In this document: piece after piece, positions 3,200 to 23,139 of the stretch | Layout of the letters: every line of letters begins with the position of its first letter | Numbering within the stretch: the stretch's first letter is position 1 | From: a virus | UHGV virus genome: UHGV-0205053 | DNA: 40,900 nt | Direction: 5' to 3' (one strand) | The notes under the pieces: generated by a model | The model's input: only the letters and a program-made list of their open reading frames with translations | Told to the model about the DNA's origin: nothing | Database searches by the model: none | Program-made: the position numbers and the translations under genes

Positions 3200-3640
3200 A
3201 TGGAAGGGCCGAGCATTCGGCCCATTCTTGAGGATCAGAACGTGAATAACCAGATTAAAGACCTTTGCTTCAAAGATAACGAATCAGCATTTGAATACGC
3301 GTGTAAGTATTGCACAACTGACATTGCAGAAAGACAAGGGCTTCTGGCGCTTGTTATTACGGATCAGGAACCAGATGGCGATGGTAACGCCTTATATGCA
3401 GTAAGGGTTTCATCCAATGACGGTGGATTTGTCGTTCCGGCTATTTTTATGGCAGCACAAGCTGATTTAGGCGCCTTAGTAAAAGGAGACCTTGTTATCT
3501 GGGTGCCATCACAGTATTCGGACGAAATGGCAAAAACGTTAGGCGATCCGAGAAAGGGATGGATGGGGTATTTATCAGCGAAAGTTGAACCAAAACTAAC
3601 TAAGTCAGATGGATGGGGAATTCAGGTCCGCTACATCTAG
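3200..3640 (+). CDS. Hypothetical protein co-transcribed with ant
   Basis: ATG lies 3 nt after the ant stop codon. No family recognised. Confidence 0.45.
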   Translation: MEGPSIRPILEDQNVNNQIKDLCFKDNESAFEYACKYCTTDIAERQGLLALVITDQEPDGDGNALYAVRVSSNDGGFVVPAIFMAAQADLGALVKGDLVIWVPSQYSDEMAKTLGDPRKGWMGYLSAKVEPKLTKSDGWGIQVRYI

Positions 3641-3647
3641 TATACTA

Positions 3648-3672
3648 GGCCGCTCATGCGGCCTTTTCTTTT
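3648..3672 (+). terminator. Rho-independent terminator (GGCCGCtcatGCGGCC plus TTTTCTTTT)
   Basis: GC hairpin followed by a T-run at the end of the arc-ant operon. Confidence 0.55.
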
Positions 3673-3931
3673 ATGTTGTTTCCTGCCTCAGCTTTTCCAC
3701 GCAGTAATCGAGATGCATCTGCAGATCCTTCATGGACATCTGCGAGCTGGTGACATAGTTCACCAGGGCAGTCAGCTCTGCCATCGGGCCATCAACATTA
3801 AAGCCATCCTCACCCAACTGGCGCAGCAACGTCATCAGGTGTGAATCTTCAACAAGGGAGCGGACGCCTCCCGGCGTGTGTATGCGTTCGGCAAAGCCTT
3901 TTTCCAGCGGGTGATGATACTGACGTTGCAT
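3671..3931 (-). CDS. Small stand-alone paralog of the Ant C-terminal domain, preceded by a LexA box; candidate SOS-induced antirepressor or modulator
   Basis: ERIHTPGGVRSLVEDSHLMTLLRQLGEDGFNVDGPMAELTAL aligns with the Ant C-terminus EHIHSPEGVLGLTEHSLLMNLLRQMEDDGHDVSGAAAELTTI. SD GGAGAAT precedes the ATG at 3931. The ORF track starts at 3949. Confidence 0.5.
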   Translation of the reverse strand: MQRQYHHPLEKGFAERIHTPGGVRSLVEDSHLMTLLRQLGEDGFNVDGPMAELTALVNYVTSSQMSMKDLQMHLDYCVEKLRQETT

Positions 3932-3950
3932 CTGATATTCTCCATGCATT

Positions 3951-3970
3951 CACTGTATGTATGTACAGTA
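3951..3970. promoter_or_regulatory. LexA (SOS) box cACTGTATGTATGTACAGTA
   Basis: CTGT-N8-ACAG with an AT-rich 8-nt spacer, a near-perfect fit to the E. coli LexA consensus TACTGTATATATATACAGTA. It lies about 20 nt upstream of the 3671..3931 gene. Confidence 0.6.
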
Positions 3971-4007
3971 GCAAAAGTCCTAATGACTATCCAGCACGAA
4001 TTGCTAT

Positions 4008-4022
4008 TTACCTAAAAGGTAA
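4008..4022. promoter_or_regulatory. TTACC-TAAAA-GGTAA palindromic operator between the LexA-regulated gene and the tailspike
   Basis: Perfect 5-5-5 inverted repeat of the recurring motif. Confidence 0.4.
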
Positions 4023-4126
4023 TAACTTCTGTGATTGTTATTCATTCAATTCATATAAGGTTTGCCAGGTAATAAACTGTCCAGATGATGCACGCGCGCC
4101 GGGCGCTGCTTTACAGGAGACAGGCC

Positions 4127-6553
4127 ATGACGGTATCAACCGTAGTTGACCATAACGATTACACCGGGAACGGCGTTACGACATCCTTCCCGTACACCTT
4201 TCGCATATTCAAGAAAACAGATCTGACCGTATCGGTTGTCGACCTGAGTGAAAACATCACGGTGCTGGTTCTGGACACTGACTACACGGTGACGAATGCC
4301 GGAGGCTATAACGGCGGCAGCGTGGTGCTCACCGCCCCGCTGACGAACGGCTGGCAGATCTCCATTGCACGTGAACTGGAGCCAACGCAGGAAACAGACC
4401 TGCGCAACCAGGGCAAGTTCTTCGCCGAGGTTCATGAAGACGCATTCGATAAACTGACGATGCTCATCCAGCAGGCATACAGCGTATTCCGTCTGGCGCT
4501 GCGGAAGCCATCGAGCATAGCGAACTGGTACGACGCACTGAACAACTACATCCGTAATCTGCGCGACCCTCGCGACCCCCAGGATGCAGCTACCAAGAAT
4601 TATGTTGATACGCTGGCGAGCGGGAACTTTAACCGCACTCTGCGAACCCCTGAAAACATCCCATCACTCCCAGGTGCTGCAACCAGGGCGAACAAAATCG
4701 TTGCCTTCGATAACTCCGGGAATCCAATTGTAACGTTACCTCCATCTGGCTCTGCATCAGACGTTCTTATTGAACTGGCAAAACCTACTGGCTCTACTTT
4801 GATCGGCGGCTCTGTTTATGTGGTCGATTCATTTTCAGCTGCCCTTGCTGCGAATGCAGGACAGTCAAAGTACATCATGACGCGTGGGCACCATGTTATC
4901 GGCATTGGGGCAGCGACTTATTTTAGTGATGGTACAACTGGCGCTCCATCAACTGGCAATGAGCTTAAATTTTTCGATGTGACCGGAAAGGGATGGTATC
5001 TTCGTCACGATGGCCGCATTGATTGTCGTCAATTCGGCGTTGTGGCGGATGGAAGCGATGAAACTACGAAGTTGCAATTATGGTTGGATTGCTGCGCTGC
5101 GGCGAAGGCAGAGGCATATATCCCTGCGGGGTTGCGACCAGCTGCAATCGGCATCGTTATAAACTCTACACACAACGGACTGCAATTTAAGTTCGATGGT
5201 TTCCTTAAGTTTTTTGGCAGCGGAAACACACCCATAAACAAACCGGCACATATCAACACTGGTGCCTGCTTCTGCCTTTATCTTGATGGTGTGTTTGATA
5301 TTTCTGGTGTTATTCGCATGGACGGCAACCGGGCGGACAAACTCAACCTGGAACAGGTTCATTGCATTGGTTTGTTTGGAGGCGGAAATCATAACGTAAG
5401 TTATGAGTTTAAAGAATGTCAGGGTGATGGTTTATATATTAGTCAGTTAAATGGAAATGCAAATTCTGCAATAGCTGAAAATATTATCATACCGTCTTTC
5501 AGATCATTTAACTCTGATTACTTTGGCAGAAATGCGCTGTCAGTTATCTCTGTTAATGGTTTAAAAATTGGCACTTTCGTATCCATCAAGCATGGCGGAC
5601 TTATCAATGCCGTTACTCAGCCCTGCGCTCTTGATATAGAACCTAATTACGGGTATCAAACGTGCAATAACATACAGATTGATAGCTACTACGCAAAATC
5701 CTGCGGTACAGGCTTCACTATTTTCGGCAAGGTGAACAATGGGAATTACAACGTTCGCAATGTATCCATCTCTAAGATGGAAATCGAAATGGAATATGTA
5801 GCCGCTAACAATAACAAAATCCGTGGGGCGATGCTGATGGGAGTTGATGGCTTGTATATCGGAAGCGCACAGGTTCGCTGCCTGTCAAACTATACCGAAA
5901 ACATCCCAGTCGGCGTCCAAATTGACTCATGCTATAACGCAGATATAAATTTCTCCACTGAGAGATTCTATCAAGGTGCTGCGGTTGGAGTTTACGGCTG
6001 GAGTGAAGTTGGTGGTGTTGCGAAAGTAGTCAATGCAAAAATATCTGTAACCCCAAGAATATTTCAACGCGGAGCCACTATCGGTGATGTTAACGGGTTA
6101 GATTTTACTCTTAGAGGGTTTACTCCAACGGCGATGTCATCTGGTAGCGATGTGGGACTTGTCCAAACAATTCAGGCAGGTGCTGTTGGTTCGTCAACAG
6201 CAGTAAAATCAGCTCGTCTATCGGTGTCAAGTGGTCCTGGTGCTGCTATTACATGGGGAATTTTCTGCTCAAATACCAATATTGAGAGGGATTCCTGTGT
6301 TATACAGGATTCAGACTTATCTGTTATCGCGCACAATGGTACGACAGCCAATAGACTGATCTCCACGGCAAACTTCCAAAAGAGGAACATAGCCGGTGTC
6401 ACGCCGAAGGGTGGGGCTGACACCATCACAGGCACTAATATCTGGGGTGTTGGGGATGTGGTCAACGACCCAACATCTCCAGCGGCAGGTGGTTACATAG
6501 GTAAAGTGTATACATCTGCCGGGTGGAAATCATATGGTGCTATAGCCAGCTAA
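4127..6553 (+). CDS. Tailspike or tail fiber: T7 gp17-like N-terminal particle-binding domain plus C-terminal parallel beta-helix (pectate-lyase-like depolymerase)
   Basis: The N-terminus (YTGNGVTTSFPYTFRIFKKTDLTVSVVD...EDAFDKLTMLIQQ) follows the T7 gp17 N-terminal pattern. The repetitive beta-helix sequence is typical of O-antigen or capsule depolymerases. SD AGGAGA precedes the ATG at 4127. The ORF track starts at 4085. Confidence 0.8.
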   Translation: MTVSTVVDHNDYTGNGVTTSFPYTFRIFKKTDLTVSVVDLSENITVLVLDTDYTVTNAGGYNGGSVVLTAPLTNGWQISIARELEPTQETDLRNQGKFFAEVHEDAFDKLTMLIQQAYSVFRLALRKPSSIANWYDALNNYIRNLRDPRDPQDAATKNYVDTLASGNFNRTLRTPENIPSLPGAATRANKIVAFDNSGNPIVTLPPSGSASDVLIELAKPTGSTLIGGSVYVVDSFSAALAANAGQSKYIMTRGHHVIGIGAATYFSDGTTGAPSTGNELKFFDVTGKGWYLRHDGRIDCRQFGVVADGSDETTKLQLWLDCCAAAKAEAYIPAGLRPAAIGIVINSTHNGLQFKFDGFLKFFGSGNTPINKPAHINTGACFCLYLDGVFDISGVIRMDGNRADKLNLEQVHCIGLFGGGNHNVSYEFKECQGDGLYISQLNGNANSAIAENIIIPSFRSFNSDYFGRNALSVISVNGLKIGTFVSIKHGGLINAVTQPCALDIEPNYGYQTCNNIQIDSYYAKSCGTGFTIFGKVNNGNYNVRNVSISKMEIEMEYVAANNNKIRGAMLMGVDGLYIGSAQVRCLSNYTENIPVGVQIDSCYNADINFSTERFYQGAAVGVYGWSEVGGVAKVVNAKISVTPRIFQRGATIGDVNGLDFTLRGFTPTAMSSGSDVGLVQTIQAGAVGSSTAVKSARLSVSSGPGAAITWGIFCSNTNIERDSCVIQDSDLSVIAHNGTTANRLISTANFQKRNIAGVTPKGGADTITGTNIWGVGDVVNDPTSPAAGGYIGKVYTSAGWKSYGAIAS

Positions 6554-6599: not shown

Positions 6600-7040
6600 T
6601 TAAAAAATTAGGATGAATGGAAACAGCAAATAGGCAATAACTTCCGTTGATAAAGACCACGCCGACTCAATAATTCCATTACCTGTTACAGATTGAGCAA
6701 AGATAATATTGCAAACGTAGGTGTAAAAAGAGCGAGCCTGATCAGTCTTGCTTGTGAAAAATATGAAAACTATGCTTACTGCAAAGAAGTAAAGAGGGTA
6801 AATCCTGGTGAATCTATTATATAAAAACTTCATATAGTTATTTTCACCCACCTTGCTGATGAATTTTTCTTTGTAGACGTAGCACATTATAAATCCACTT
6901 AGAACAAAGAATAGATCAACAGCTAAGTATCCATTTCTTATAAAATCTGAACTCCACCCCATTGGATTAATGTGGTAAAACATAACATATATGGCAAATA
7001 TGCCCCTAATTCCTGTTAAAGCTTTAATTTCTTTATTCAT
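6600..7040 (-). pseudogene. 3'-truncated acyltransferase-3 family (OafA/Oac-like O-antigen acetyltransferase) remnant in an AT-rich island
   Basis: N-terminal motifs LTGIRGIFAIYVMFYH and DLFFVLSGF are the acyltransferase-3 signature. Only 146 aa are present against a full length above 300 aa. The ORF ends at the tailspike terminator. Region is low-GC. Confidence 0.55.
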
Positions 7041-14585: not shown

Positions 14586-15176
14586 TTACTCTTGCGTTTT
14601 ACCGTTCTGAACAATCACGAAATCGACGTAGCTCTCGATCTTACTTTTCTCGCTCTCAGGTAACAATGCGTAGCGGGCCCGGTCGTAATGAATGGTCGCC
14701 GGGTCGCGGGGATGGATGAGCAGTTCATAGCCGCGGCGCCCGAACGCGCTGGCGATCGCCTCCAGGGTGGAGATAGAAACGCTAACCTCGTTGTTCAGCA
14801 TGCGGTTGATTGTCGCCTGGGCAACGCCGGACGCTTTCGACAGCTTGCCCTGGGAGGACAGGTCGCGGTTGTTTTGCATCCACAACTCGAGGTTATGCGC
14901 CGCCAGCTGGCCAATGTCGGAAGGGGTGATTTCTTCCTGGGGGATGGCAACGGCAGATAATGAGTGGTCGATGTCCAGCCAGTTGGTAGGCTTGTTCGCC
15001 GCTTTCTCAAGTTTTCGGGCAACAGTATCGCCGACAACCTTCTGACCGCGGGCCCAGCGGTTAACCAGGTTCGCCTGAGTGCCCAGTTTTTCCGCCAGAC
15101 GAGTCTGCACCCCGTTAAAGTCACGGTCGATGATATCGTTAATATTCTGCCTGCGGATATCCTGAATACTTTTCAT
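14586..15176 (-). CDS. CI-like lysogeny repressor with tandem HTH domains and no S24 peptidase domain
   Basis: Two XRE/CI-like HTH segments (GVQTRLAEKLGTQANLVNRWARGQ and LSKASGVAQATINRMLNN). Divergent from a Cro-like gene. No Ala-Gly/Ser/Lys autocleavage module. Confidence 0.55.
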   Translation of the reverse strand: MKSIQDIRRQNINDIIDRDFNGVQTRLAEKLGTQANLVNRWARGQKVVGDTVARKLEKAANKPTNWLDIDHSLSAVAIPQEEITPSDIGQLAAHNLELWMQNNRDLSSQGKLSKASGVAQATINRMLNNEVSVSISTLEAIASAFGRRGYELLIHPRDPATIHYDRARYALLPESEKSKIESYVDFVIVQNGKTQE

Positions 15177-15712: not shown

Positions 15713-15907
15713 GTGAAAATCGTCACCAGAATGGAGGCCGCCAGGGCTGGCCTTAACAGATTCTACACCGGCAAGGCCTGCCGGAATGGTCATAAGGCGG
15801 AGCGCTACGTACTGAATGGCACCTGTGTTGAGTGCGCACTTCAGAGCGCAAACCGTCATCGCAGCGAGTTCTCATCCGCTCTCAAATCTGCACGGGGTGA
15901 AGCATGA
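15713..15907 (+). CDS. Small zinc-ribbon-like protein (CxxGH...CxxC)
   Basis: CRNGHKAERYVLNGTCVEC. GTG start with SD GAGGGG. Confidence 0.3.
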   Translation: MKIVTRMEAARAGLNRFYTGKACRNGHKAERYVLNGTCVECALQSANRHRSEFSSALKSARGEA

Positions 15908-16749
15908 AGCCCGCAGCGTATTACAACGAAATCGACCCATTTGCAGCGCAGTGGCTGCGTAACCTGATCGCCGGCGGTCATATCGCACCTGGCGAAGTTG
16001 ATGAAAGGAGTATTGAAGATGTCACACCTGACGACCTGCGAGGATTTACCCAGTGCCACTTCTTCGCCGGAATTGGCGTCTGGTCTCATTCCCTGCGCCT
16101 CGCCGGATGGCCTGACAATAAACCAGTCTGGACCGGCTCCTGCCCGTGCCAGCCTTTCAGCGCGGCAGGCAAAGGAGATGGGTTTGCTGACGAGCGGCAC
16201 CTTTGGCCCCACTTCTTCCACCTCATCAGCGAGTGCACACCTCAGCATGTCTTTGGCGAACAGGTTGCAAGCGGTAACGCAAACGCATGGTTCGACCTTG
16301 TTCAATCAGACCTGGAAGGAATGGGTTACGCCTTCGGGCTTGTGCCGTTTGCGGCAGCGGGCGTCGGTGCGCCGCACATCAGAGAGCGGGCCTACTGGGT
16401 GGCCAACACCGAGGGCAAGGGATTTCCACACGGAAGGTCAGGGGCAGCACAGTCCTTCTTTACCGAGACTGACGGAAAGGCTTTCTCCACCAGGCCCCTT
16501 GAGGTTAACGGTTTTTGGCGAGATGCGGACTGGCTCTTATGTCGAGATGGCAAATGGCGTCCAGTTGAACCCGGCACATCCCCGCTGGTTGATGGGGCTG
16601 CCGCGCGCCTGGGACGAGTCGAGCCCGGGGTGGCAAGAGTGGCAAGCAGCAACCGCGTCGGCAGACTTAAGGGCTACGGTAACGCCATAAACGCACAGGC
16701 TGCGGCTGAATTTATCCGGGCTTATATGGGGGTTAGCTATGGCCGGTGA
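15904..16749 (+). CDS. DNA cytosine-5 methyltransferase (Dcm-like)
   Basis: Motif I FFAGIG, motif [10 protein letters not shown] (PCQ), and the ENV-like and GN motifs of C5 methyltransferases. Confidence 0.75.
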
Positions 16750-21344: not shown

Positions 21345-21712
21345 TGGACTATTCACAGTTATCAGATTTTGAAATTAACAGCGCAGTACATAATGCGAAA
21401 CTAAAAGAGCCTTATGCTCTGGTGTTCATGGGTGATGATCGAATTGCATGGACGAAAGAAAATGGTGATCAAATTATCACGGAGAAAGTTCCTTACACCA
21501 AAAATGGAGTGCATGACTACTGCAACAACCCGGCAGACGCATGGCCGATCATTGTTGGTAGCAAGATAAACATCAGGTTCGGTGCGGAAGGGATGGCTTG
21601 TGAGGCTCAGTTTATGCAGTACGGACATGAGAGTGTGGAGTGCTACCACGCCAACCCCCTCCGTGCTGCAATGATTGTCTTCCTCATGATACAGGAAAAT
21701 CAGAATGGCTAA
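21344..21712 (+). CDS. Hypothetical protein
   Basis: SD GAGGTGGGG. TGATG overlap. Confidence 0.4.
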   Translation: MDYSQLSDFEINSAVHNAKLKEPYALVFMGDDRIAWTKENGDQIITEKVPYTKNGVHDYCNNPADAWPIIVGSKINIRFGAEGMACEAQFMQYGHESVECYHANPLRAAMIVFLMIQENQNG

Positions 21713-22043
21713 GACAGCAGCAGAACGCAAAGCAGCGCAGCGGGCCCGCCAGGCGGAAGCAGGAGAGCGAAAGCTTGAACTGGTACTCGACGAGCAGGAA
21801 ATAGAGATGCTGGCGCGGAACTGCGCCGAGCGGCGACCGGGTCGTGAGCCATACGAACTGAGCGAGTACATTGCTCTGCTGATCCGCCAGGATGATGCGC
21901 GAGTTCGCGGTCGTATAAAAGTCATCAGCGCAAAGCGGTGCGGCAAGTGCGGCGACAGCCTGCCGGTGAAGTCCTGCCCGTGCACTGGCGATTCTGCATG
22001 CTGGGTGACTAACGGCTGGCATGAAACGAAACTTGCAGTGTGA
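21705..22043 (+). CDS. Small basic protein with a C-terminal Cys cluster (CGKCG...CPCTGDSAC); candidate late-gene regulator
   Basis: Last gene before the late-structural region. Has a zinc-finger-like cluster. Its stop overlaps the GTGAC-GT-GTCAC palindrome. Confidence 0.35.
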   Translation: MAKTAAERKAAQRARQAEAGERKLELVLDEQEIEMLARNCAERRPGREPYELSEYIALLIRQDDARVRGRIKVISAKRCGKCGDSLPVKSCPCTGDSACWVTNGWHETKLAV

Positions 22044-22080
22044 CGTGTCACGACGTGTTGACTAAATCCTCACATGATTA

Positions 22081-22100
22081 TACTGTTTAAATGTACAGTA
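22081..22100. promoter_or_regulatory. LexA (SOS) box TACTGTTTAAATGTACAGTA
   Basis: Perfect CTGT-N8-ACAG with TA flanks. Lies 20 nt upstream of the 22121 ATG (SD GAGGT). Confidence 0.65.
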
Positions 22101-22120
22101 TATTTATGTGAGGTTCCATT

Positions 22121-22450
22121 ATGGGCTTTCCATCTCCGGCAGCAGACTACGCAGAAGCATCTCTCACCATCACCAGCCTTTGCGGCTTCGACGGCAATTG
22201 TCGCGCCATCGAGACGTCAGCGGGCTATGCAATCATCAACGTTGCCAACAAACCAGATCCGGGTGACACCGTGCTGATTTCGTATTGTGGCCGCACGGAG
22301 TTCGCCATTGTCCAGGGAAAGGCGCTGATCACTCCGGAAGGTGAAGCACTCGAAGGCGAGGCGCTGGAAGACACGACAGTGCATGGCGTGGTTACTCACT
22401 TCCTGAACCGTGTTGGCCGCCAGGACGACGAACCAATACCAGTCATGTAA
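22121..22450 (+). CDS. UmuD'-like S24-fold protein lacking the catalytic Ser; begins at the UmuD cleavage-site equivalent; LexA-regulated
   Basis: The N-terminus MGFPSPAADY equals the UmuD' N-terminus (UmuD is cleaved at C24/G25 to give GFPSPAADY...). Conserved blocks PGDTVLIS, EFAIVQGKAL and TVHGVVTHF follow the S24 beta-fold. The GDSM Ser motif is replaced by SAGYA. Confidence 0.55.
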   Translation: MGFPSPAADYAEASLTITSLCGFDGNCRAIETSAGYAIINVANKPDPGDTVLISYCGRTEFAIVQGKALITPEGEALEGEALEDTTVHGVVTHFLNRVGRQDDEPIPVM

Positions 22451-22472
22451 CATCTGCGCGGGCGTGATAGTA

Positions 22473-22508
22473 TTACCTGCATGGTAATAAAATTACTCAG
22501 GTGGTAAT
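22473..22508. promoter_or_regulatory. Operators TTACC-TGCAT-GGTAA (perfect; extends to ATTACC...GGTAAT) and TTACT-CAGGT-GGTAA (9/10) overlapping the TerS start
   Basis: Read immediately upstream of and overlapping the terminase small subunit start codons. Confidence 0.45.
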
Positions 22509-23139
22509 GATGCCCGCGACGCCAAAAACCCACAAACGCAAATCAACGCAATATAAGCCTCTTACAGCGATGATGGAGGCTTACTGCCAGTCCTACATTA
22601 AGACACCTGAGAACCAGACTCAGGCGGCGATTAACGCAGGATTTTCGCCTAATACGGCAGCCGTCAAAGCAAGCAACATGATGCGCGACGAAAGAATCCA
22701 GAAACGAATCGCTGAACTGATGGAAGAGCGCAACAAGCGGAACCGCGTCAGCGCTGATTACGTCCTCATGCGCCTGGTGGAGATCGACCAGATGGATGTG
22801 CTGGACATACTGAACGACGATGGCGGGATGAAGCCTATTGCTGAATGGCCGAAGGTATGGCGCACCTCGCTCAGTGCGATGGATATAGCCACCATCAAGA
22901 CCACTCAGGCCTCACTGCAAAAAGAGAATGGCGAGGCGGAACTCTCTGTTGAGGATGTCGAGCATATCCTGAAGAAGGTGAAGTGGCCGGACAAGGTTAA
23001 GAATCTCGAGCTGATTGGTAAGCATGTCGACGTCAACGCGTTCAAAGAGCGCCTGGAAGTTTCCGGTACCGTAACCATCGCCGACCGCATGGCCGCCGCC
23101 CGGCGCCGCGTCAAAGAGCAGGCTGGTGGTGAAGAATGA
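22507..23139 (+). CDS. terS: Terminase small subunit
   Basis: AYCQSYIKTPENQTQAAINAGFSPNTAAVKASNMMRDERIQKRI matches the terminase-small N-terminal HTH family. ATGA overlap with TerL. Confidence 0.7.
   Translation: MMPATPKTHKRKSTQYKPLTAMMEAYCQSYIKTPENQTQAAINAGFSPNTAAVKASNMMRDERIQKRIAELMEERNKRNRVSADYVLMRLVEIDQMDVLDILNDDGGMKPIAEWPKVWRTSLSAMDIATIKTTQASLQKENGEAELSVEDVEHILKKVKWPDKVKNLELIGKHVDVNAFKERLEVSGTVTIADRMAAARRRVKEQAGGEE

What the first reader, a model, noticed from the sequence alone, without database searches (positions are those of the whole stretch)
22081..22450. LexA-controlled UmuD'-like protein that starts at the UmuD cleavage point and lacks the catalytic serine
A textbook LexA box (TACTGT-N8-ACAGTA) lies 20 nt upstream of a 109-aa ORF. 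Its first residues after Met are GFPSPAADY, the exact N-terminus of RecA-processed UmuD'. The S24 beta-fold blocks are conserved (PGDTVLIS, EFAIVQGKAL, TVHGVVTHF). The Ser-nucleophile region (GDSM in UmuD) is replaced by SAGYA. There is no UmuC-like partner gene; TerS follows directly. This is a genetically pre-cleaved, protease-dead UmuD' look-alike made only during SOS. It could hetero-dimerise with host UmuD or UmuD', dock on RecA filaments, or act as an antirepressor or co-factor for a repressor that cannot autocleave. I do not recognise a described function for such a protein.
Basis: partly seen in the sequence, partly recalled or inferred. Interest (0 to 1): 0.8.

Follow-up and report, generated by a model that had tools for sequence, protein, structure and literature searches.

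The report
SOS-controlled protease-dead UmuD' mimic in prophage
An epsilon15-like prophage carries a small DNA-damage-inducible gene for a stripped-down copy of the bacterial mutagenesis factor UmuD' that is already "cut" and has lost its protease site; it is a reduced relative of phage P1 HumD, is not the phage's induction switch, and has no tested function.

Summary
A perfect LexA box (22081-22100) lies 20 nt upstream of a 109-aa ORF (22121-22450). After Met removal the protein would start GFPSPAADY, the N-terminus of RecA-processed UmuD'.

The gene evolves under purifying selection (dN/dS about 0.17). It sits in at least four prophage contexts in Enterobacteriaceae, never beside umuC. All 72 usable viral loci carry a LexA box. 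In this phage it is an insertion between the late-regulator gene and terS.

The antirepressor idea is very unlikely, because the window already encodes the SPC32H-type Rep/Ant pair with its own LexA box. UmuD's RecA-groove contact residues are not conserved.

The closest known protein is P1 HumD, a pre-truncated, LexA-regulated, umuC-less phage UmuD' homolog. This family has lost the Ser/Lys pocket and fails the curated HumD, UmuD and S24 models.

My best guess, which is inferred, is that it acts as a UmuD' surrogate or modulator on host UmuC. It is a new variant of a known kind and is moderately interesting.

The parts
22058..22063 (+). -35 hexamer TTGACT of the cassette's own promoter
   Evidence: The sequence is. 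The TTG is invariant at a fixed distance from the LexA box across unrelated genomic contexts, while sequence further upstream is unrelated (alignment A3). The simple promoter scan missed it because the -10 matches only 3 of 6 positions. Promoter function is inferred.
22081..22100 (+). LexA box TACTGT-N8-ACAGTA. Its left arm TACTGT (22081-22086) sits 17 nt after the -35 hexamer and probably doubles as the -10.
   Evidence: 0.03 expected by chance. A box is present 20-24 nt before the ATG in 57 of 72 homologous viral loci. In the other 15 it lies 264-265 nt upstream, in front of a two-gene operon. P1 humD has an annotated LexA site at the same distance. LexA binding itself was not tested.
22110..22113 (+). 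Shine-Dalgarno GAGG, 7 nt before the ATG
   Evidence: Sequence. A G-rich stretch is conserved in A3.
22121..22450 (+). CDS of the 109-aa reduced HumD/UmuD'-like protein (11.5 kDa, pI 4.3)
   Evidence: - for the ORF.
- PHROG 3469, E 5.5e-44.
- 173 homologs of about 100-115 aa, and every host named in the listed rows is in Enterobacteriaceae.
- dN/dS about 0.17.
- Profile against UmuD, E 4.7e-8.
- hhalign against P1 HumD, 98.5% and E 1.5e-15.
22124..22150 (+). N-terminal arm GFPSPAADY, identical to UmuD' residues 1-9 (UmuD 25-33). Met1 is expected to be removed before Gly.
   Evidence: M1, G2, F3, P4, S5, P6 and D9 are invariant, and A7 and Y10 are at least 90% conserved, in 36 diverse members. 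Identity to UmuD/UmuD' is shown. Met removal is inferred from the known methionine aminopeptidase preference for a small second residue (my own knowledge).
22217..22225 (+). S33-A34-G35 turn, marking the site where the Ser60-bearing loop of UmuD (about residues 59-70) is deleted
   Evidence: HMM alignment to 8gmt_B and 1umu_A shows gaps of 6 and 5 residues. MAFFT with UmuD, HumD and N15 gp26 shows one 12-residue gap. In the AF2 model, strands 27-32 and 35-40 form a hairpin here.
22304..22306 (+). Ala62, the position that aligns with the UmuD general base Lys97
   Evidence: Searches give the same register: G57=G92, F61=V96, A62=K97. A62 is at least 90% conserved and no Lys is invariant in the family.
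22322..22366 (+). Family-specific acidic motif ALITxDGEAxEGEAL (residues 68-82). It holds the invariant I70, G74, E78 and G79 and has no counterpart in UmuD or HumD.
   Evidence: Alignment A1. Alignment A2 shows it replaces the UmuD 104-122 region. Its function is unknown.
22376..22414 (+). Long C-terminal beta-strand (residues 86-98, TVHGVVTHFLNRV) aligned with UmuD 125-137, which I recall as the strand pairing in the UmuD' dimer (not checked against a paper here)
   Evidence: AF2 strand E86-98. G and V (UmuD G129, V130) are invariant across UmuD, HumD, N15 gp26 and this family. Dimerisation is inferred, not tested.
22415..22447 (+). C-terminal tail ...DDEPIPVM, shared with P1 HumD (...FDDCPVI) and N15 gp26 (...FDDCPVL) but absent from UmuD
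   Evidence: The tail supports descent from the HumD-type phage lineage.
22044..22500 (+). The whole 457-bp inserted cassette (promoter, LexA box, CDS) between the putative late-regulator gene (21705..22043, PHROG 536) and terS (22501..23139)
   Evidence: In Salmonella Uetakevirus PAT1 the two flanking genes are 28 nt apart. DNA similarity to Salmonella epsilon15-like phages stops at query position 354, which is window 22053. No intrinsic terminator was found after the CDS.

Best explanation
**What it is (shown).** It is a self-contained SOS cassette carried by temperate phages of Enterobacteriaceae. Here it is inserted between the late-regulator gene and terS of an epsilon15-like (Uetakevirus) prophage of an Enterobacter-type host.

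The promoter appears to be TTGACT-17 nt-TACTGT, with the -10 inside a perfect LexA box. The gene should therefore be silent in a lysogen and switched on when LexA is cleaved. That timing does not depend on the phage's own Rep/Ant switch.

The product is a reduced relative of phage P1 HumD.
- It begins exactly at the UmuD cleavage point, so after Met removal it starts GFPSPAADY.
- It keeps the S24/SH3-like beta core, the C-terminal dimer strand and the HumD-type C-terminal tail.
- It has lost the 11-12-residue loop carrying the Ser nucleophile and has Ala in place of the Lys general base.
- It cannot be a protease and needs no RecA-mediated processing.

**How it most likely works (inferred).** It acts on the host Pol V pathway as a ready-made UmuD' surrogate. 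It would dimerise through the conserved C-terminal strand, either with itself or with host UmuD/UmuD'. Its invariant N-terminal arm would then insert into host UmuC.

The arm is the one part of UmuD' that mutagenesis requires beyond dimer formation. In the 2025 Pol V model it lies next to the UmuC active site.

The effect would be UmuC-dependent translesion synthesis as soon as SOS starts, instead of about 45 min later. Lesion-bearing prophage DNA could then be replicated after induction, a Weigle-reactivation-type benefit.

The direction of the effect is the least certain step. The protein could license UmuC or plug it.
For: **Identity**
- establish the box and the ORF.
- One search places it in PHROG 3469.
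- The family profile matches UmuD end to end.
- hhalign against HumD gives 98.5% over residues 1-129.
- The C-terminal tail is shared with HumD and N15 gp26.

**Loss of the catalytic dyad**
-.

**A real gene under selection**
- dN/dS is about 0.17.

**SOS control is a family trait**
- All 72 loci have a LexA box.
- The -35 hexamer and the box are conserved across unrelated contexts and also in P1 and N15.

**Mobile, host-directed cassette**
- It occurs in four contexts with no umuC.
- In Uetakevirus it is an insertion.
- In 15 loci plus mEp390 it is paired divergently with a DinI-like RecA-filament binder across one LexA box.
- In one locus it sits next to a phage recA that has its own LexA boxes.

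**Precedent**
- P1 HumD 'functionally complements E. coli UmuD'' (record annotation; title of McLenigan et al. 1999).

**Importance of the arm**
- In the Pol V model one UmuD' arm reaches the UmuC active site.
- Armless UmuD' dimerises but does not support mutagenesis, and changing a single N-terminal residue matters (PMC11791011).
- Here the arm is the only long invariant stretch.

**Peptidase activity is not needed for an accessory role**
- Non-catalytic SH3-like YolD proteins are proposed UmuD counterparts (PMC6511836).

**Timing**
- UmuD'2C forms about 45 min after SOS induction (abstract of PMC6375631).
Against: - No interaction or phenotype was tested.
- In the Pol V model the UmuC C-terminal carboxylate docks on UmuD' S36, T71, K73 and E69, which are UmuD S60, T95, K97 and E93. 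HumD keeps S, K and E. This family has lost all four: the Ser is deleted, and the others are E60, A62 and R58. A homodimer may therefore bind UmuC poorly, and the protein may have diverged from HumD in function.
- It fails the curated HumD model (26.5 bits against a cut-off of 120, matching residues 1-20 only) and the UmuD model (19.5 against 110).
- The family-specific acidic motif ALITxDGEAxEGEAL is unexplained by this model.
- Salmonella epsilon15-type phages do without the gene.
- I did not check whether host genomes carrying it also carry umuC.
Confidence: 0.4

Rival explanations
1. It is a dominant-negative decoy of the Pol V pathway. The protein heterodimerises with host UmuD through the conserved C-terminal strand. 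UmuD cleaves intermolecularly within the dimer, and the phage subunit has no active site, so the partner UmuD could not be processed. Alternatively the arm plugs UmuC without productive docking. Either way the phage would suppress SOS mutagenesis, or the UmuD2C replication checkpoint, during its own replication.
For: - UmuD cleavage is intermolecular in the RecA-UmuD structure (PMC9926225).
- The dimer strand is conserved.
- The catalytic pocket, which is also the predicted UmuC-tail dock, is lost.
- The gene is regularly paired with a DinI-like gene. From my own knowledge, DinI preferentially inhibits UmuD cleavage.
Against: - A simple heterodimer poison would not need an invariant N-terminal arm.
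- The homolog HumD activates rather than inhibits.
- UV-damaged phage DNA is known to profit from UmuDC-dependent Weigle reactivation (my own knowledge), so inhibition has no obvious benefit.
Confidence: 0.2
2. It modulates RecA* filaments or another SOS component in the way DinI, PsiB or the 434 Hex protein do. It would bind activated RecA, or an S24 protein such as LexA or a competitor prophage's CI, through its arm and its acidic surface. That would tune co-protease activity during induction.
For: - The protein is acidic, with pI 4.3 and 16 Asp/Glu against 6 Lys/Arg.
- It has a conserved acidic motif. RecA-groove binders use acidic patches against RecA K232, R243 and K245.
- UmuD arm residues F26 and P29 contact RecA and are invariant here.
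- Its neighbours include dinI-like genes and, in one locus, recA.
Against: - The UmuD residues forming the pocket for the RecA L2 loop (Y52, residue 54, F94) and the acidic pair D91/E93 are not conserved: here they are A29, E31, T59, C56 and R58.
- The recA neighbour is a separate transcription unit seen in one locus only.
Confidence: 0.12
3. It is an antirepressor or co-factor that inactivates the phage's non-cleavable repressor.
For: - The phage repressor has two HTH domains and no S24 domain, so it needs an antirepressor.
- The gene is LexA-controlled, as antirepressor genes are.
Against: - The role is already filled. Ant is at 3671..3949(-) with its own LexA box, and Rep matches the solved SPC32H Rep-Ant complex 5d50 at E 1.4e-44 and 9.8e-47.
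- Ant homologs are present in Salmonella and E. coli Uetakeviruses that lack this gene.
- The same protein family, at 54-75% identity, sits in lambdoid and other prophages with unrelated neighbouring genes. That is not what a repressor-specific ligand would show.
Confidence: 0.04

Closest known systems
Bacteriophage P1 HumD (NCBIfam NF051876, 'HumD family'), together with N15 gp26 and phiKO2 gp23
   Same: - It starts at MGFPSPAADY, so it is UmuD'-sized without processing.
- A LexA box lies about 20 nt before the ATG.
- It is monocistronic, with no umuC partner.
- It has the same C-terminal tail DDxPV(I/M).
- Homology runs end to end (hhalign 98.5%, E 1.5e-15).
- N15 gp26 and the short-family member mEp390 gp26 both follow the Cor and tail-fibre genes at the end of the late region.
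   Different: - HumD is 129 aa, keeps the Ser (AADSHH) and Lys (RIKRY) positions, and hits Pfam Peptidase_S24.
- This family is about 105-109 aa. It has an 11-12-residue deletion of the Ser loop, further shortening (5- and 4-residue gaps) in the region aligned with UmuD 101-126, Ala at the Lys position, and a new acidic motif.
- It scores 26.5 bits against the 120-bit HumD cut-off, and only residues 1-20 match.
- HumD function has been tested (the P1 record says it complements UmuD'; from my recollection of the 1999 abstract it also binds UmuC and RecA filaments). This family is untested.
E. coli UmuD' (the processed Pol V accessory subunit; PDB 1umu, 1ay9, 1i4v)
   Same: - The nine N-terminal residues are identical.
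- The C-terminal strand is conserved (G129 and V130 invariant).
- Both are LexA-controlled.
   Different: - UmuD' is made by RecA-stimulated self-cleavage of UmuD and is encoded in an operon with umuC.
- UmuD' retains S60 and K97, which in the Pol V model hold the UmuC C-terminus.
- The phage protein is made directly, has no partner gene, and lacks S60, K97, T95 and E93.
- Overall identity is only about 20-25%.
LexA-controlled small antirepressors (SPC32H Ant, Gifsy GfoA/GfhA, 186 Tum)
   Same: They are small phage proteins whose genes lie behind a LexA box. They are made only during SOS and are carried by phages whose repressor cannot cleave itself (PMC9879122).
   Different: There is no sequence or fold similarity. 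The window encodes a bona fide SPC32H-type Ant elsewhere (3671..3949, minus strand). This protein's distribution does not follow any one repressor type.
Non-catalytic S24/S26-fold or SH3-core accessory proteins (186 CI C-terminal domain, SipA, YolD/YqjX)
   Same: They have a beta core of the LexA/signal-peptidase type, or of its SH3 sub-core, used for protein binding without a Ser-Lys dyad (PMC6511836).
   Different: These are separate lineages. None carries the UmuD' arm, and none is a LexA-controlled phage moron.

Membership tests
Peptidase S24 autoproteases (LexA/UmuD/lambda CI; Pfam PF00717) | Ser nucleophile (UmuD S60, LexA S119) | tested here: not met
   The loop carrying it is deleted in the whole family.
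Peptidase S24 autoproteases (LexA/UmuD/lambda CI; Pfam PF00717) | Lys general base (UmuD K97, LexA K156) | tested here: not met
   It aligns to near-invariant Ala62, and there is no invariant Lys anywhere in 36 members.
Peptidase S24 autoproteases (LexA/UmuD/lambda CI; Pfam PF00717) | Internal Ala/Cys-Gly cleavage site preceded by an N-terminal segment | tested here: not met
   The protein begins at the Gly of the site, and the first in-frame start is ATG 22121.
Peptidase S24 autoproteases (LexA/UmuD/lambda CI; Pfam PF00717) | S24 beta fold | tested here: met
Peptidase S24 autoproteases (LexA/UmuD/lambda CI; Pfam PF00717) | Score above the Pfam gathering threshold for PF00717 | tested here: not met
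   There is no PF00717 hit even at E <= 1. P1 HumD does hit it.
UmuD, Pol V autoproteolytic subunit (NCBIfam NF007621) | Curated score cut-off (110 bits) | tested here: not met
   19.5 bits, residues 2-21 only.
UmuD, Pol V autoproteolytic subunit (NCBIfam NF007621) | Operon with umuC | tested here: not met
   TerS follows here.
HumD family (NCBIfam NF051876; P1 HumD, N15 gp26) | Curated equivalog cut-off (120 bits) over the full length | tested here: not met
   26.5 bits, residues 1-20 only. Homology is nevertheless clear by profile comparison.
HumD family (NCBIfam NF051876; P1 HumD, N15 gp26) | Translation starts at the UmuD cleavage point, a LexA box lies about 20 nt upstream, no umuC partner, and the C-terminal DDxPV tail is present | tested here: met
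HumD family (NCBIfam NF051876; P1 HumD, N15 gp26) | Retention of the S60/K97/E93 pocket | tested here: not met
   HumD has Ser, Lys and Glu at these positions. This family has a deletion, Ala and Arg.
HumD family (NCBIfam NF051876; P1 HumD, N15 gp26) | Binds UmuC and RecA filaments and complements UmuD' in mutagenesis | not testable with these tools
   It needs genetics and biochemistry or multimer modelling. The structure tool takes single chains only.
PHROG 3469 'UmuD-like protein' | Full-length match to the family HMM | tested here: met
   E 5.5e-44, residues 1-104 against profile positions 1-104 of 106.
LexA (SOS) regulon of Enterobacteriaceae | CTGT-N8-ACAG box overlapping the promoter, conserved in orthologous loci | tested here: met
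   The box has perfect 6+6 arms. It is conserved in 72 of 72 loci. Its position relative to the -35 hexamer is conserved.
LexA (SOS) regulon of Enterobacteriaceae | LexA binding and DNA-damage inducibility | not testable with these tools
   It needs EMSA, a reporter, or RNA-seq with and without mitomycin C.
SPC32H-type antirepressor (Ant) | Homology to Ant, or binding to Rep | tested here: not met
   Ant is a different gene in the same window (5d50_E, E 1.4e-44). The PDB sequence search with the 109-aa protein, run at E up to 10, returned only UmuD and UmuD' chains, not the Ant chain of 5d50. Binding to Rep was not tested.

The most novel reading that the evidence does not exclude
The protein is a natural separation-of-function UmuD'. 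It is only the arm plus the dimerising beta core, and it licenses host UmuC without any RecA-stimulated cleavage. One possible route is a heterodimer with uncleaved host UmuD. In that dimer the host subunit would supply the S60/K97 pocket that docks the UmuC C-terminus, and the phage subunit would supply the free arm that reaches the polymerase active site. If so, a prophage could short-circuit the cell's main temporal safeguard on Pol V. The family would also show that the UmuD' catalytic pocket is dispensable in one of the two subunits.
Probability: 0.2. Interest if true: 0.7.

Novelty: new variant of a known kind. Interest (0 to 1): 0.45.

Why it matters
Pol V is the main source of damage-induced mutations in enteric bacteria. 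It is held back by a slow step, RecA-dependent UmuD cleavage. A widespread prophage gene in Enterobacter and Klebsiella would bypass that step if it supplies a ready-made, protease-free UmuD' arm at the onset of SOS. That could change mutation supply, and therefore resistance evolution, in lysogens exposed to quinolones or other DNA-damaging drugs. It could also explain how induced prophages replicate damaged genomes.

The family is also a natural experiment. The N-terminal arm stays invariant while the catalytic pocket is discarded. This argues that the arm has a proteolysis-independent role, in line with the recent computational Pol V model.

If the protein instead turns out to inhibit Pol V, it would be a phage-encoded anti-mutator and a template for SOS-mutagenesis inhibitors.

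Tried and rejected
- **Single-sequence searches.** Pfam gave no hit. phmmer against the PDB matched only the first 21 residues. A family profile was needed.
- **Promoter and terminator scan.** It found no promoter for the gene and no terminator after it. The promoter call rests on cross-context conservation instead.
- **First LexA-box survey.** It seemed to show 15 loci without a box. These turned out to be two-gene operons with the box 264-265 nt upstream.
- **recA neighbour in L054.** It looked like an operon partner, but it has its own LexA boxes and the cassette has its own terminator hairpin. It occurs in that one locus only. The 64-aa ORF overlapping the 3' end of the cassette there has no family hit and I treat it as probably spurious.
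- **PADLOC.** No defence-system match.
- **Literature.** Searches on UmuD with antirepressor, HumD, 'UmuD-like' phage, and phage-encoded UmuD found no study of the short family. McLenigan et al. 1999 and Kim and Ryu 2013 are not held, so they are cited only through record annotations and reference lists.
- **Antirepressor reading.** Rejected.
- **RecA-groove binding in the UmuD manner.** Judged unlikely.
- **Longer representatives.** Some representatives of 138-187 aa look like miscalled starts, read-through fusions with the upstream 79-aa ORF, or one UmuD-N-terminus chimera. I did not treat them as a full-length ancestral form.
Full report
**1. The observation**

The sequence is as described.
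- TACTGTTTAAATGTACAGTA occupies 22081-22100.
- GAGG lies at 22110-22113.
- An ATG at 22121 opens a 109-codon ORF ending at 22450.

The 6+6 palindromic LexA pattern, allowing one mismatch, is expected 0.03 times in this window and occurs twice. The other copy (3951-3970) precedes a second SOS-type gene (section 4).

Residues 2-10 (GFPSPAADY) are identical to UmuD 25-33, the first residues of RecA-processed UmuD'. Met before Gly is normally removed, by the known methionine aminopeptidase rule (my own knowledge). The mature N-terminus should therefore equal that of UmuD'.

The next gene is a small terminase subunit (PF03592, E 3.7e-27). The window is an epsilon15-like phage (Uetakevirus). It is 87% identical over this region to Enterobacter phage BUCT554, whose annotation contains no polymerase gene.

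**2. What the protein is**

Single-sequence searches see only the arm.
- Pfam gives nothing.
- phmmer against the PDB matches residues 2-22 only.
- PHROGs places the whole protein in phrog_3469 'UmuD-like protein' (E 5.5e-44).

The large protein database holds 173 homologs of about 100-115 aa. Every host named in the listed rows belongs to Enterobacteriaceae: Enterobacter, Klebsiella, Citrobacter, Kosakonia, Raoultella, Atlantibacter and some E. coli. An exhaustive profile search finds 362 representatives at 50% identity, many of them fragments.

The evidence for homology and fold is as follows.

| Comparison | Result |
|---|---|
| Profile of 36 diverse members vs UmuD (8gmt_B), residues 25-137 | E 4.7e-8 |
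| Family profile vs P1 HumD, residues 1-129 (hhalign) | 98.5%, E 1.5e-15 |
| AF2 model | pLDDT 79 |
| Foldseek | same ranking |

The S24 fold is therefore supported.

**3. The catalytic residues**

Two independent alignments (HMM, MAFFT) agree.
- UmuD residues about 59-70, which include the Ser60 nucleophile, are absent. S33-A34-G35 forms a hairpin turn between the strands that correspond to UmuD beta1 and beta2.
- Lys97 aligns with Ala62, which is at least 90% conserved. No Lys is invariant in the family.

The protein cannot be an S24 protease.

By contrast, P1 HumD keeps Ser and Lys at these positions. N15 gp26 keeps Lys and has Thr in place of Ser.

The short family shares the C-terminal tail DDxPV(I/M) with HumD and gp26. 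It also shares the LexA box at the same distance from the ATG. mEp390 gp26, a short-family member, and N15 gp26 both follow the Cor and tail-fibre genes at the end of the late region. The simplest reading is that the short family descends from HumD-type phage genes by loss of the active-site loop.

It is a functional gene, not a remnant. The median pairwise dN/dS is 0.17.

**4. Context and regulation**

Among 80 related viral contigs the gene occurs in four settings.

| Context | Arrangement | Loci |
|---|---|---|
| A | Uetakevirus: late-regulator-like gene (PHROG 536), cassette, terS | about 32 |
| B | Lambdoid nin region, between the replication genes and rusA | about 25 |
| C | Prophage end beyond the tail-fibre genes: dinI-like gene, LexA box, then a 79-aa ORF translationally coupled to the gene | 15, plus phage mEp390 |
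| D | After a DNA methyltransferase, or of unknown neighbourhood | about 9 |

In 57 of 72 usable loci a CTGT-N8-ACAG box lies 20-24 nt before the ATG. In the other 15 it lies 264-265 nt upstream, in front of the two-gene operon.

Across contexts A, B and D the sequence upstream of the -35 is unrelated, but TTGAC(T/C)-17 nt-TACTGT is kept. The left arm of the box is therefore the likely -10. This is inferred. The simple scan missed it.

In Salmonella Uetakevirus PAT1 the two flanking genes are 28 nt apart. DNA similarity to the Salmonella phages ends at window 22053. In this phage the 457-bp cassette (22044-22500) is thus an insertion of the moron type.

The gene is rare in E. coli. Between 7 and 16 of 5,426 complete genomes match, depending on the variant used as query.

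**5. The antirepressor idea**

The phage repressor (14586..15176, minus strand) has two HTH domains and no S24 domain, so an antirepressor is indeed needed. That role is already filled.
- The 91-aa ORF at 3671..3949 (minus strand) lies directly behind the second LexA box.
- It matches the 'Anti-repressor protein' chain of PDB 5d50 at E 1.4e-44.
- The repressor matches the 'Repressor' chain of the same entry at E 9.8e-47.
- Its homologs in phages SPC32H and SPC32N are annotated ant. The study is Kim and Ryu 2013, listed in the references of PMC7380047. The paper itself is not held.

Epsilon15, phiV10 and SPC32H have Ant but lack the UmuD'-like gene. The UmuD'-like family also travels among phages with unrelated neighbouring genes. 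I put the antirepressor reading at about 4%.

**6. RecA docking**

- RecA F203 inserts into a pocket formed by UmuD Y52, residue 54 and F94. The paper writes L54, and the UmuD sequence I used has Val there.
- D91 and E93 face a basic patch on RecA.

In this family the aligned residues are A29, E31, T59, C56 and R58. Binding in the UmuD manner is therefore unlikely.

F26 and P29 of the cleavage-site region, which touch RecA, are conserved. The protein is acidic (pI 4.3) and has a conserved, family-specific acidic motif, ALITxDGEAxEGEAL. A different mode of RecA binding cannot be excluded.

**7. Most likely mechanism (inference)**

P1 HumD, the closest characterised relative, complements UmuD' (P1 record; title of McLenigan et al. 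1999).

A 2025 AlphaFold-based model of Pol V reports three relevant points (PMC11791011).
- One UmuD' arm inserts next to the UmuC active site.
- Armless UmuD' dimerises but is dead for mutagenesis.
- Changing even one N-terminal residue matters.

In the short family the arm is the only long invariant stretch, although these proteins are never cleaved. This is hard to explain unless the arm itself binds something, and UmuC is the obvious candidate.

The same model has the UmuC C-terminal carboxylate docked on UmuD' S36, T71, K73 and E69. These are UmuD S60, T95, K97 and E93. HumD keeps the Ser, Lys and Glu, and the short family has lost all four. The short family has therefore kept the arm and discarded the dock.

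Because the Pol V model is asymmetric, one subunit docks the tail and the other gives the arm. A heterodimer with host UmuD or UmuD' could still work, and the C-terminal dimer strand is conserved.

I therefore favour a UmuD' surrogate that gives early UmuC-dependent lesion bypass for the induced, damaged prophage genome (confidence 0.4). UmuD'2C normally appears about 45 min into SOS (abstract of PMC6375631).

The main rival is a dominant-negative decoy of UmuD processing or of Pol V (0.2). A RecA*/SOS modulator comes next (0.12).

**8. Comparison with known families and novelty**

| Curated model | Result |
|---|---|
| Pfam PF00717 (Peptidase S24) | no hit |
| NCBIfam UmuD (NF007621) | 19.5 bits against a cut-off of 110 |
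| NCBIfam HumD (NF051876) | 26.5 bits against a cut-off of 120 |
| PHROG 3469 'UmuD-like protein' | E 5.5e-44 |

It is a clear homolog of HumD. In some records it is already labelled 'UmuD-like' (mEp390 gp26, phiES15).

The kind is known: a pre-truncated, LexA-controlled phage UmuD' without umuC. The variant, with the active-site loop and Lys removed and a new acidic motif, has not been studied in any paper I could find. That library lacks most subscription journals.

I rate it a new variant of a known kind, with interest 0.45.

Noticed in passing
window 3671-3970 (minus-strand ORF 3671..3949; LexA box 3951-3970) and 14586-15176 (minus strand): The window holds a complete SPC32H-type induction switch. 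A 91-aa antirepressor (PDB 5d50_E, E 1.4e-44) lies behind a LexA box, CACTGTATGTATGTACAGTA. The repressor is a non-cleavable double-HTH protein (5d50_A, E 9.8e-47).
   Followed up: yes
window 4018, 4068, 14462, 15277(-), 15627, 22483, 25958, 26020: The octamer GGTAATAA occurs 8 times against 0.79 expected. All copies lie in intergenic or promoter-like spots: before the tailspike-like gene, around the immunity region, between the UmuD'-like gene and terS (inside the near-palindrome ATTACCTGCATGGTAAT), and before the portal operon. They are probably operators of Rep or sites of the late regulator encoded at 21705..22043.
   Followed up: partly
L083 (phage mEp390, NC_019721) 3409-4321; also L059-L081: This is a conserved SOS module: a dinI-like gene, a LexA box, then a 79-aa ORF (PHROG 3893, no Pfam hit) overlapping by TGATG with the UmuD'-like gene. 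The 79-aa ORF is not annotated in mEp390, where a 43-aa ORF on the other strand is annotated instead. Its function is unknown.
   Followed up: partly
L054 6330-7636: A prophage-borne full-length recA (PF00154, E 2.7e-135) with two LexA boxes of its own lies directly downstream of the UmuD'-like cassette. It was seen in this one locus only.
   Followed up: partly
protein P0129 (141 aa): This single database protein joins a UmuD-type N-terminus with a cleavage site (…FSDSMQC/GFTSPAADY) to a short-family body that lacks the Ser loop. It could be a recombinant between host umuD and the prophage gene, or an assembly artefact.
   Followed up: no
L085 (Salmonella phage BTP1, LT714109) 2501-2743; also ST-35 and vB_ST415_1NRH: P22-like Salmonella phages carry a stretch matching only UmuD' residues 2-83 (41% identity). 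In BTP1 it is unannotated on that strand. It may be a truncated or decaying UmuD'-like gene next to gtrA and int.
   Followed up: no
window 6600-7040 (minus strand) and 15904-16749 (plus strand): A 146-aa ORF matches only the first 143 of 326 positions of the Acyl_transf_3 profile, so it may be a truncated O-antigen acetyltransferase. A C-5 cytosine DNA methylase gene lies in the early region.
   Followed up: no
window 21705-22043: The gene upstream of the cassette (PHROG 536 'transcriptional regulator', no Pfam or NCBIfam hit) ends in a Cys-rich stretch, KRCGKCGDSLPVKSCPCTGDSACW. It sits just before the packaging genes in all Uetakeviruses examined, so it may be a zinc-finger late activator.
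   Followed up: no
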